A stretch of DNA of 64,000 nucleotides from Escherichia coli (GTDB lineage Bacteria; Pseudomonadota; Gammaproteobacteria; Enterobacterales; Enterobacteriaceae): assembly GCF_024298765.1 (NCBI RefSeq), contig NZ_CP101210.1; one strand, written 5' to 3'. Position numbers: made by a program. The stretch's first letter is position 1. Each line of letters starts with the position of its first letter. This document shows positions 61,601 to 64,000 of the stretch, one piece after another.

Positions 61601-64000
61601 CTCTGCCGGAGAAAATGCGGGCAACCAGGATGCGTCCTCTCCACGCCGCGCACCAATTTTAGTGACAATTGTCAGGTCGTCAGAGTAAGGATAAAGCGCT
61701 TCGCGGATAATCTGATTGGTGACGTGCGGACCATAAAAGTCGCTGGTATCAATATGATTGACGCCCAATGCCAGCGCCTCACGCAGCACGGTTATAGCGA
61801 CGTGGCGATCTCTTGGGGGGCCAAAAACCCCAGGACCTGCCAGTTGCATCGCGCCATAACCAAGACGGTTAACGGATTTTGTACCGAGAGTAAATGTATT
61901 GCTGCTCATCGCACCCTGCCCTGTAATAAAACGGATTAAGAAAAATAGTATAGAAACGAAAAGAGATAAATAATGCGAAGGCGTAAACAAGATTACTGGA
62001 TGAGTTGCTCTATTGCCCTGAAAGACACCAAAACAAAACGCGTCAAGTACCGCATCCGGCAATAAAAAAACCGCAACCTGTATCAGCGTTGCGGTTTAGG
62101 TATCACATGCTAAAAATTAGAACGTCCAGCATCAGGACGTTACTGTTTCGGTCGCAGATTCTCATCAAATACCAGGCGCTGCCTGCCAGGTTCAACTTCC
62201 CGCAATGGCTCAACTTGATGCAACGTCTGCTTACTGCGTGTCACCAGCACCTGATACTCATGCGTGCCCTGCTTTTTCCATGCCAGTTCCTGCTCACTAA
62301 GTTCACGAATCGCTTTTGCCGGGCTGCCGACAATCAGGTAATTAGCAGGCATTTCTGCTTTGGCTTTCACAAATGCGGAAGCGCCAACAATGCTGTTCTC
62401 GCCAATCACCGCACCGTCCATCACTACCGCGTTCATACCCACTAATGCATTGCGGCGGATAATGCAGCCGTGAAGGATAGCGCTATGACCAATATGCCCA
62501 TCTTCTTCCACGACAGTATCCTGATCGGGAAAACCGTGCATAACGCAATTATCCTGAATGTTCGCGCCATCTTTCACCACGATACGACCGAAATCGCCAC
62601 GCAGGCTGGTATTTGGCCCAACGTACACGCCCTTGCCGAGAATAACATCGCCGATCAATACCGCTGTCGGATGGACAAAACTCTCTTCTGGCACAAACGG
62701 AGTCAGACCGTCTATCTGATAAATTGGCATAACGCCTCCTGTTCAATATTCAAGCCGCCAAAACGTTGAAAATACAGGCTTCCCGGCGCAGGCAATTCAC
62801 CGACCGAGGTTTCACCTTTTTCACTAACGAACGCTAAAGCAGCAGGCGCTACGCGCTGATAAAGTTTGCCGATAAAGGTTTGGTAGTCGCGCAATATATC
62901 CGTAACCGTCGTCTCGATTTTTGTGCAGATGCGATTCGCCATGCCGCAGATGATGAAAAACTGGCAGGCATTGGCTTTCATTGGGGATTTTCCGACCAGA
63001 GTCATTTTTCAACGGTATTTAAGCAACGCTTTGGGATGACGCCAGGCGAGTATCGACGTAAATTCCGCTAACTAATTCGCGTTGCATGTACAGCAACGCG
63101 AATTAGTTAAAACAGATATTTGACTATGCATTTTTCAGGGCGAAAGGCAATTTGACAGGAATTTTTGAATATTCACGTTGTTTCCGGAAAATAGATTAAT
63201 CGTCTTCTCCTGTAGCGTTATCCCGATATTGCGGTTTTGCTATTAAAATTTTCGCACCCATTTACCGTTTATCCCTTGTACATATTCCCCGGGTTTGGCC
63301 CGTTCTACAAGCTTTTGCCCGGCGAGTTTCGCGATATCATCCACCGACACATTATTCTGCTTTGCCAGTTGTTGATAGCTCGCTTTACGTTCGGCATTGA
63401 TGTCGGTTACTAATTTCTCAGTTTCAGCATCTGTTTTCAGCGCAACCAGATAACCATAAAATGTTTCGCCTACCCGCCCCTGAGTTCTGGCTTCATCCAG
63501 AGTCAATGCCATTACATTGCTGCTTACCAAGCCAACAAGAAATGCACAAAGAAGTAATGTTCTTTTCATCATCACCTCAAAAAAGATCGCTACGGGTCTC
63601 AAGCAGCTCTTCGACATCTTTGTCTGCCTTGATGATGATCTCATGCTCAATTTTAACGTTCATATTGATAGTGATCGGTTCCTTAGGTGCAGCGACTTCA
63701 ATGCGAGGCGTACAGCCAACCAGCATAAAAGATGACGTCAACGCAGCCAGTAAAATTTTCATTGTTTATCCTCACACTCTTTTCCTTGCGGACAGTCATT
63801 TCCCGGTAGATGCGCGTTCTGCTCCAGCCATGCCTGGAGATTATCGCCAAAGCGTAAACTGCGCCACAGCGTAAAAATATTCTCTTCATGATGGTAATTA
63901 AGATTTACCGTACCGCTTTTACCATCAACGCGACTGGTACCTGTAATATTGGCCTGCATGGTTAATAAACCGAGATTATCTAAATTAATTTTTGTCGATG

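What the first reader, a model, noticed from the sequence alone, without database searches (positions are those of the whole stretch)
61910..62139. No ydbA autotransporter locus between pdxI and paaY
Only ~230 bp with a strong terminator separate the pdxI start and the paaY stop, where K-12 (from memory) carries the several-kb IS-interrupted ydbA pseudogene. This strain therefore has a compact arrangement at this site, which could be ancestral or a clean deletion.
Basis: partly seen in the sequence, partly recalled or inferred. Interest (0 to 1): 0.25.

Follow-up and report, generated by a model that had tools for sequence, protein, structure and literature searches.

The report
Common ydbA autotransporter deletion allele
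This E. coli strain lacks the large ydbA surface-protein gene that K-12 carries between paaY and pdxI, but this is an old, ordinary deletion allele found in about 37% of complete E. coli genomes and already noted in the literature.

Summary
pdxI (61049-61909, minus) and paaY (62140-62730, minus) are separated by exactly 230 bp that contain a strong intrinsic terminator. The either/or resolves to a deletion.

- **Remnant:** the spacer keeps the whole K-12 ydbA-pdxI intergenic region, ydbA's terminator, ydbA's last codons and stop (ACG TTC TAA, 62117-62125), and probably about 10 more ydbA bases.
- **Outgroups:** Pseudocitrobacter faecalis has paaK-paaX-paaY-BigA-like autotransporter-pdxI. A divergent Escherichia genome and the sampled ST131, O157:H7 and K-12 genomes also carry ydbA next to pdxI.
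- **Spread:** the same junction, one base after the paaY stop, occurs in 2032-2038 of 5426 complete E. coli genomes. Flanks differ by 3-5% and look mosaic, so the allele is old and probably recombination-spread. It shows no sign of IS mediation.
- **Literature:** variable ydbA carriage in this region was already reported (PMC4951805).

A separate 17.7-kb deletion removed feaR'-feaB-tynA-paaZ-paaA..K-paaX'. ydbD is a pseudogene and an IS200C copy sits beside pdxI. Overall this is ordinary and of low interest.

The parts
61049..61909 (-). pdxI (ydbC) CDS, 286 aa, intact
   Evidence: ORF list. RefSeq annotation of strain 104. 96.5% nucleotide identity to K-12 1475119-1474005.
61910..62139 (-). 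230-bp paaY-pdxI spacer. It equals the K-12 ydbA-pdxI intergenic region plus the deletion junction.
   Evidence: blastn against K-12: window 61011-62125 matches K-12 1475119-1474005. Alignment of 8 compact alleles.
61947..61956 (-). Conserved TTTCTATACT block (-10-like TATACT) about 40-47 nt upstream of the pdxI ATG; inferred pdxI promoter/leader, retained. The window has a 1-nt deletion immediately 3' of it.
   Evidence: Conserved in E. coli, E. albertii, a divergent Escherichia genome and Pseudocitrobacter. The 1-nt deletion is unique among 8 compact alleles. Promoter function is inferred only; the consensus scan found no sigma-70 site.
62040..62060 (-). Degenerate REP-like sequence (GCCGGATGCGGTACTTGACGC)
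   Evidence: Aligns to intact paired REP-like palindromes in Pseudocitrobacter and the divergent Escherichia genome. Identification as REP rests on my knowledge of the REP consensus.
62064..62097 (-). Intrinsic terminator (10+3-bp stem, U7 tail). It is ydbA's terminator in ydbA+ strains and here serves paaY.
   Evidence: Fold result. Identical sequence downstream of the ydbA stop in K-12, ST131 and O157.
62117..62138 (-). Remnant of the ydbA 3' end. The last two codons plus stop (ACG TTC TAA, 62117-62125) are certain. CTGATGCTGG (62126-62135) is probably ydbA GTGATGCTGAAC with an 11-nt internal gap. 62136-62138 are of unclear origin.
   Evidence: (MAFFT itself places the 11-nt gap). The pattern search finds the ydbA-end match as one of 5 matches at 3 mismatches or fewer in 42 kb, against 1.29 expected.
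62121..62141 (-). Junction-created hairpin AACGUCC-UGAUGCU-GGACGUU overlapping the paaY stop codon; specific to this junction haplotype
   Evidence: -10.5 kcal/mol here, but -6.2 and -1.3 kcal/mol in the other two junction haplotypes.
62140..62730 (-). paaY CDS, 196 aa, intact but orphaned
62712..62864 (-). paaX 3' fragment (last ~152 bp). This is the left edge of the separate 17.7-kb deletion.
62865..63071 (+). feaR 3' fragment (AraC-type HTH C-terminus). This is the right edge of the 17.7-kb deletion.
   Evidence: The same junction occurs in 259 complete genomes.

Best explanation
The 230-bp spacer is the scar of an old chromosomal deletion. It removed everything from one base after the paaY stop codon to within about 10-20 bases of the ydbA stop codon: paaY's own terminator, the small gene ynbG, the ydbA promoter and almost the whole 5-8.5-kb BigA-like autotransporter gene. 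What remains is the ydbA stop with a few C-terminal codons, ydbA's intrinsic terminator (now terminating paaY transcripts and insulating pdxI), a decayed REP-like sequence, and the unchanged pdxI upstream region. The deletion is not IS-mediated. It is shared with an identical junction position by about 37% of complete E. coli genomes, and homologous recombination through the conserved flanks has probably moved it between lineages. In this strain it sits beside a second, independent 17.7-kb deletion that removed the rest of the paa/tynA/fea cluster. Shown here: the anatomy, the remnant, the synteny and the frequency. Inferred: a single origin, spread by recombination, and the terminator and promoter functions.
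For: - **Collinearity:** window 61011-62125 is collinear with K-12 pdxI + spacer + the last 9 nt of ydbA, and 62139-62863 with K-12 paaY + the paaX 3' end. K-12 1465063-1474004 is absent.
- **Remnant:** ACGTTCTAA, the ydbA end, is retained. The adjacent CTGATGCTGG aligns to the conserved ydbA GTGATGCTGAAC with an 11-nt gap. By my rough estimate, the chance of such a match on that strand within about 30 nt of the retained end is about 5e-4, using the background rate.
- **Terminator:** the hairpin is identical to the one after the ydbA stop in K-12, ST131 and O157 and folds strongly.
- **Outgroups:** Pseudocitrobacter faecalis has PaaK, PaaX, PaaY, a 1982-aa auto_BigA-type protein and then PdxI, with the same DNA at the autotransporter's 3' end. 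A divergent Escherichia genome (84% nucleotide identity in the pdxI region) has ydbA-pdxI.
- **Within E. coli:** ST131 has an intact 2838-aa ydbA, O157:H7 a split one, K-12 an IS-broken one. Three further ydbA+ strains were examined.
- **Same junction everywhere sampled:** all 11 other compact alleles sampled share the junction position with the window; the junction sequence itself was aligned for 8 alleles (coordinates). A contiguous match across it occurs in 2032/5426, 2030 and 2038 genomes.
- **Diverged, mosaic flanks:** compact flanks differ from the window by 2.3-4.9%. The window's paaY is closest (98.3%) to the ydbA+ strains SCU-109/RIVM_C039629, while its pdxI side is closest to K-12 (98.1%).
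- **Literature:** PMC4951805 describes ydbA..ydbB as part of a 'region of genomic heterogeneity', with full-length ydbA in about 42% of phylogroup A genomes.
Against: - No clean direct repeat or microhomology explains the junction. At best there is a TAA shared by the paaY stop and GATAAAGG in ydbA. Three to five junction bases (GTCC..) have no clear source.
- The 13-17 nt at the junction differ at 4 positions among compact alleles (three haplotypes). That is more than the neighbouring spacer and could hint at more than one event.
- E. albertii has ydbL directly next to pdxI with neither paa nor ydbA, so the immediate sister species does not itself show the ydbA+ state.
Confidence: 0.88

Rival explanations
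1. The compact paaY-pdxI arrangement is the ancestral empty site, and ydbA (with ynbG) was inserted later in the K-12-like, B2 and O157 lineages.
For: E. albertii lacks ydbA next to pdxI. The left boundary lies exactly one base after the paaY stop, and the K-12 sequence beyond it is AT-rich, which is what an island edge can look like. ydbA alleles are very divergent, 76-100% nucleotide identity.
Against: The 'empty' site contains ydbA's own last codons, stop codon and terminator. Pseudocitrobacter has the same paaY-autotransporter-pdxI order with a DNA-level match at the gene's 3' end. E. albertii lacks the whole feaR-paa block too, so it is a different and larger absence. No mobility genes flank ydbA in the six ydbA+ loci read.
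Confidence: 0.04
2. The deletion arose several times independently at the same position (a recurrent, mechanism-driven deletion), rather than once followed by spread through recombination.
For: There are three junction haplotypes differing at 4 of 17 nt. Compact alleles sit on flanks as divergent from one another as from ydbA+ alleles, and the window's paaY is closest to ydbA+ strains.
Against: All sampled alleles share the same odd junction, including the unexplained GTCC and the 11-nt internal gap of the remnant. Independent events would be unlikely to reproduce that. No repeat or site that could drive recurrence was found. The SNP pattern in paaY changes within about 90 bp of the junction, as expected for recombination tracts.
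Confidence: 0.07
3. This is a recent, strain-specific deletion or an assembly collapse of a repetitive gene, possibly caused by the IS elements seen in K-12 or by the nearby IS200C.
For: ydbA is repetitive and breaks draft assemblies; the contig of the divergent Escherichia genome ends inside ydbA. An IS200C copy lies about 900 bp away at 60305-61010.
Against: The same junction is present in more than 2000 complete (finished) genomes from many hosts and countries. No IS sequence or scar lies in 61910-62139, since every base is accounted for by K-12 spacer plus 13 nt. IS200C is on the far side of an intact pdxI and is absent from the other compact alleles whose ydbD-pdxI interval was read.
Confidence: 0.01

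Closest known systems
E. coli K-12 MG1655 paaY-ynbG-ydbA(b4492, pseudogene)-pdxI locus
   Same: Same flanking genes, same pdxI upstream region, and the same terminator and stop codon at the ydbA end. Identity is 96.4-96.5% in the flanks.
   Different: K-12 has 8.9 kb more: ynbG, about 6.1 kb of ydbA in three fragments, IS2D and IS30C. K-12 also keeps paaY's own terminator and the whole paa/tynA/fea cluster, which the window lacks.
Compact paaY-pdxI allele of other E. coli (e.g. O111:H8 7-58 72A, O145:H28 RM12761, ECOR29, 2018-11-3CC)
   Same: Identical junction position and a 230-232-bp spacer with the same terminator.
   Different: Most carry a complete paa cluster upstream of paaY. Three junction haplotypes exist. 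The window's type (roughly a quarter of compact genomes by the identity bands) forms a perfect 7-bp hairpin, and the commonest type does not.
'Region of genomic heterogeneity' around paa described by Goldstone et al. 2016 (Sci Rep 6:30115, PMC4951805)
   Same: That paper reports variable carriage of feaRB-tynA-paa and of ydbA..ydbB between the core genes ydbH-ynbE-ydbL and ynbC-ynbD-azoR, with full-length ydbA in about 42% of phylogroup A. It also reports several independent internal paa deletions.
   Different: The passages read do not give the junction anatomy or the direction of the event (deletion versus insertion), and they cover phylogroup A only.
Intact BigA/YdbA-type autotransporter genes (ST131 WP_022645057.1, 2838 aa; Pseudocitrobacter 1982 aa)
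   Same: They occupy exactly the interval that is empty in the window and end with the same ...ACG TTC TAA plus terminator or REP context.
   Different: The window has no coding capacity for this protein at all.

Membership tests
Deletion allele of ydbA (as opposed to a never-occupied site) | Residual sequence of the missing gene at the junction | tested here: met
   ACGTTCTAA (the last 2 codons plus stop) is certain. About 10 more nt are probable, with an 11-nt gap.
Deletion allele of ydbA (as opposed to a never-occupied site) | Gene present at the same position in outgroups and deep lineages | tested here: met
   Present in Pseudocitrobacter faecalis, a divergent Escherichia genome, ST131, O157 and K-12. 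The exception is E. albertii, which lacks the whole block.
Deletion allele of ydbA (as opposed to a never-occupied site) | Single origin (compact alleles monophyletic at the junction) | tested here: inconclusive
   The junction position is identical in all alleles sampled, but the flanks are mosaic and there are three junction haplotypes. No tree of all 2000 or so alleles could be built with these tools.
BigA/YdbA autotransporter gene | An ORF between paaY and pdxI matching NCBIfam NF033178 (auto_BigA) or carrying a C-terminal autotransporter beta-barrel | tested here: not met
   The spacer is 230 bp with no such ORF. The positive controls ST131, Pseudocitrobacter and the divergent Escherichia genome score 1455-1639 bits.
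Intrinsic (Rho-independent) terminator | G+C-rich stem-loop immediately followed by a U-run, downstream of a stop codon on the same strand | tested here: met
   Located at 62064-62097 on the minus strand, with a 13-bp interrupted stem and U7, starting 42 nt after the paaY stop. Fold z = -4.55. Termination activity itself is not testable with these tools.
IS-mediated deletion | An IS copy or IS end at the junction | tested here: not met
   Every base of 61910-62139 aligns to the K-12 spacer except 13 nt with no similarity to an IS. The nearest IS (IS200C) is at 60305-61010, beyond pdxI.
Known RNA families (Rfam 15) | A covariance-model match in the spacer | tested here: not met
   There is no hit in 61910-62139 at E <= 1. 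The only hit in 60200-63300 is STnc490 inside IS200C.

The most novel reading that the evidence does not exclude
The ydbA presence/absence pair may be an ancient balanced polymorphism of a surface-exposed autotransporter. The null (compact) allele is at about 37%. Highly divergent functional or decaying ydbA alleles (76-100% nucleotide identity, 5-8.5 kb) occur in at least 47% of genomes. Both states would be kept across phylogroups by frequency-dependent selection (phage, immune or adhesion trade-offs) and shuffled by recombination. A lesser variant is that the haplotype-specific junction hairpin over the paaY stop codon has acquired a role in 3'-end formation or stability of paaY mRNA.
Probability: 0.15. 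Interest if true: 0.3.

Novelty: already known. Interest (0 to 1): 0.08.

Why it matters
It matters little beyond bookkeeping. The result settles the direction of a common E. coli gene-content polymorphism: ydbA was lost here, not gained in K-12. It shows that K-12's IS-riddled ydbA is just one of several decay routes of the same gene. It illustrates a terminator swap, in which paaY lost its own terminator and now uses ydbA's. For annotation of this window, it flags that paaY is an orphan relic and should not be read as evidence of phenylacetate catabolism. The min-31 paa-ydb interval is a known hot spot of gene loss, and this strain carries four separate lesions there.

Tried and rejected
- **Source of the junction bases:** I searched for a second source of the 13 junction bases inside ydbA/ynbG of K-12 and ST131 with up to 3 mismatches. 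Only the ydbA 3' end is positionally meaningful, and there was no exact source.
- **Repeats or microhomology:** I looked at both breakpoints in five ydbA+ alleles. Nothing convincing turned up beyond a shared TAA.
- **Junction hairpin as a conserved element:** rejected. It is strong only in the window's haplotype (-10.5 kcal/mol) and essentially absent in the commonest one (-1.3 kcal/mol).
- **Rfam scan of 60200-63300:** nothing in the spacer.
- **Sigma-70 consensus scan of 61800-62300:** no hit. The pdxI promoter assignment therefore rests only on conservation.
- **A false lead:** I suspected from a coincidence of record lengths that some genomes with the paaX'-feaR' junction still carry ydbA. 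Checking FDAARGOS_1287 and Z226-7 showed they are compact too.
- **Outgroup scan limits:** It returned only four informative loci. Kluyvera has an unrelated neighbourhood.

Full report
**Observation.** The end of the window is the E. coli min-31 region in reverse orientation relative to K-12. pdxI (ydbC) occupies 61049-61909 and paaY 62140-62730, both on the minus strand. The interval between the pdxI ATG and the paaY stop codon is 61910-62139, exactly 230 bp. RefSeq annotation of E. coli strain 104 (chicken, China) gives the same genes and gap. That strain is identical to the window over 55705-64000 apart from one 5-nt repeat unit.

**K-12 comparison.** MG1655 has paaX, paaY, ynbG, ydbA (pseudogene b4492 in three fragments, interrupted by IS2D and IS30C) and then pdxI.

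blastn of the window against that K-12 stretch gives these segments:
- window 61011-62125 = K-12 1475119-1474005, which is pdxI, the whole 207-bp ydbA-pdxI spacer and the last 9 nt of ydbA;
- window 62139-62863 = K-12 1465062-1464338, which is paaY and the last ~152 bp of paaX;
- window 62861-64000 = K-12 1446588-1445449, which is the last ~211 bp of feaR, then ydbL, ynbE and the ydbH end.

Relative to K-12 the window therefore lacks 1465063-1474004 (the finding). Separately, it lacks 17.7 kb between feaR and paaX.

**Anatomy of the junction.** In K-12 orientation the window reads ...CCGAAACAG TAA C GTCCTGATGCTGG ACGTTC TAA TTTTTAGCATGTGATACC-terminator. The first TAA is the paaY stop. ACG TTC TAA is the end of ydbA (…Thr-Phe-stop). 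This end is conserved in K-12, ST131, O157:H7, three further ydbA+ strains, a divergent Escherichia genome and Pseudocitrobacter.

The preceding CTGATGCTGG resembles the conserved ydbA GTGATGCTGAAC that lies 11 nt further upstream. MAFFT places exactly that 11-nt gap on its own. A degenerate pattern search shows that a match of this quality occurs only about 1.3 times per 42 kb on both strands by chance, so one lying right next to the retained end is unlikely to be accidental. The spacer thus carries 9 certain and about 19-22 probable bases of ydbA, plus ydbA's terminator.

paaY's own terminator (AAAGCAGAG...CTCTGCTTT plus a T-run in K-12), ynbG and the ydbA promoter are gone. Nothing in the spacer resembles an IS or an Rfam family.

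**Direction of the event.** Three lines of evidence point to deletion.
- First, the remnant described above.
- Second, synteny outside E. coli. Pseudocitrobacter faecalis DSM 27453 has PaaK (TIGR02155, 782 bits), PaaX (TIGR02277), PaaY (TIGR02287), a 1982-aa auto_BigA-type autotransporter (NF033178, 1455 bits) and then PdxI, in that order. A genome labelled E. coli SCPM-O-B-8794, only 84% identical in DNA in the pdxI region, has a BigA-type ORF running into pdxI.
- Third, ydbA sits at this place in deep E. coli lineages. It is intact (2838 aa) in ST131, split in O157:H7 and IS-broken in K-12, and it measures 1673-2510 aa in RIVM_C039629, SCU-109 and RM9088.

E. albertii is the exception. There ydbL (…FVQGINGKWLRK-stop, read) abuts pdxI directly, with neither paa nor ydbA. 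That is a different and larger absence and does not show the compact paaY-pdxI state.

**How common is it?** Three queries give consistent counts:
- A 701-bp query across the junction matches contiguously in 2032 of 5426 complete E. coli genomes.
- A 1381-bp query does so in 2030 genomes.
- A 71-bp junction query does so in 2038 genomes.

That is about 37%. The last 2 kb of K-12 ydbA is found by megablast in 2539 genomes. This is a lower bound, because alleles range down to about 76% identity.

Compact genomes include O111:H8, O145:H28, ECOR29 and many animal, human and environmental isolates. All 11 other compact alleles I read have the junction at the same base, and the junction sequence was aligned for 8 alleles. 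Three junction haplotypes exist:
- GTCCTGATGCTGGACGTTCTAA (this window);
- GTCCAGATACTGAACGTTCTAA;
- GTCCAGATACTGAACATTCTAA.

By the identity bands they account for very roughly a quarter, a quarter and a half of compact genomes. In the window's haplotype the junction forms a perfect 7-bp hairpin over the paaY stop (-10.5 kcal/mol). In the other two it is weak or absent (-6.2 and -1.3 kcal/mol), so I do not regard it as a selected element.

**Age and spread.** The flanks of compact alleles differ from the window by 2.3-4.9%, as much as ydbA+ flanks do. The window's paaY is closest (98.3%) to the ydbA+ strains SCU-109 and RIVM_C039629, yet its last ~90 bp near the junction carry variants shared with other compact alleles. 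Its pdxI side is closest to K-12 (98.1%).

The simplest reading is one old deletion whose junction has been carried into different backgrounds by homologous recombination through paaY and pdxI. This is an inference. Recurrent deletion cannot be fully excluded, but it is hard to square with the shared idiosyncratic junction.

**Mechanism and consequences (inferred).** No repeat explains the breakpoints; at most a TAA is shared. The deletion was therefore probably an illegitimate, microhomology-poor event. It was followed by a small 11-nt slippage loss between AAC repeats in the dead remnant.

Functionally, the paaXY transcript in compact strains should now end at the former ydbA terminator, 42 nt after the stop. 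pdxI keeps its conserved upstream block, including a TATACT motif at 61947-61952 that is conserved as far as Pseudocitrobacter. The cell simply loses a large surface autotransporter.

**Known or new?** Goldstone et al. 2016 (PMC4951805, read) already describe the paa region, including ydbA to ydbB, as a region of genomic heterogeneity between ydbH-ynbE-ydbL and ynbC-ynbD-azoR. They report full-length ydbA in about 42% of phylogroup A genomes and several independent paa deletions. I rate it 'already known' and of low interest.

paaY is an orphan in this strain. A 17.7-kb deletion with a 3-nt overlap at 62861-62863 joins the last ~152 bp of paaX to the last ~207 bp of feaR. The same junction is in 259 complete genomes, many of them avian isolates, including APEC O78:H4 and APEC O2-211. 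Those I checked are also compact at paaY-pdxI.

ST131 has a different paa deletion (paaY'-feaR'). O157:H7 has ydbA next to ydbL. The paa cluster has therefore been lost several times by different events.

On the other side of pdxI, an IS200C copy (60305-61010; Rfam STnc490 hit, 146 bits) separates pdxI from a ydbD pseudogene. That pseudogene has a ~986-bp internal deletion and an expanded (CGTTA)9 array.

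Noticed in passing
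window 62712-63071 (junction 62861-62863): A 17.7-kb deletion joins the last ~152 bp of paaX to the last ~207 bp of feaR, removing feaR', feaB, tynA, paaZ, paaA-K and paaX'. paaY is left as an intact but promoter-less orphan. The same junction is present in 259 of 5426 complete E. coli genomes, many of them avian (APEC O78:H4, APEC O2-211). ST131 and O157:H7 lost the cluster by different deletions.
   Followed up: yes
window 60305-61010: An IS200C copy (tnpA 60408-60866, minus strand) is inserted between the ydbD start and the pdxI stop. Its 5' end matches Rfam STnc490 (60876-60999, 146 bits). It is absent from the other compact alleles whose ydbD-pdxI interval was read (O111:H8, 2018-11-3CC).
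   Followed up: partly
window 59889-59934: A perfect pentanucleotide array (CGTTA) x 9.2 lies inside the ydbD pseudogene. Strain 104, otherwise identical over 8.3 kb, has one more unit. K-12, O111:H8 and O157:H7 ydbD have no detectable array. It appears to be a lineage-specific expanded and still-mutating microsatellite.
   Followed up: partly
window 58929-60274 (overlap 59380-59395): ydbD (DUF2773 bactofilin-like) is a pseudogene. It has a ~986-bp internal deletion flanked by a 16-nt overlap relative to K-12, plus frameshifts and a stop according to RefSeq annotation of the sister strains.
   Followed up: partly
window 61946-61947: A 1-nt deletion lies immediately 3' of the conserved TATACT motif upstream of pdxI. 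It is unique to this window among the 8 compact alleles aligned and could shift the pdxI transcription start if the motif is the -10 element.
   Followed up: no
L006 (E. albertii NBRC 107761) 4896-5545; L003 (ST131) 10699-12210; L093 and L095: Other architectures occur in the same interval. E. albertii has ydbL directly next to pdxI. ST131, SCU-109, RIVM_C039629 and the divergent Escherichia genome have pdxI directly next to azoR, lacking ydbD-ynbABCD. ydbA length varies from 5.0 to 8.5 kb between strains.
   Followed up: partly
window 63072-63242: A long perfect inverted repeat (AACTAATTCGCGTTGC...GCAACGCGAATTAGTT) lies between the feaR stop and the ydbL stop. It looks like a bidirectional terminator for the convergent genes, and if so it would limit read-through from ydbH-ynbE-ydbL into the orphan paaY.
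   Followed up: no
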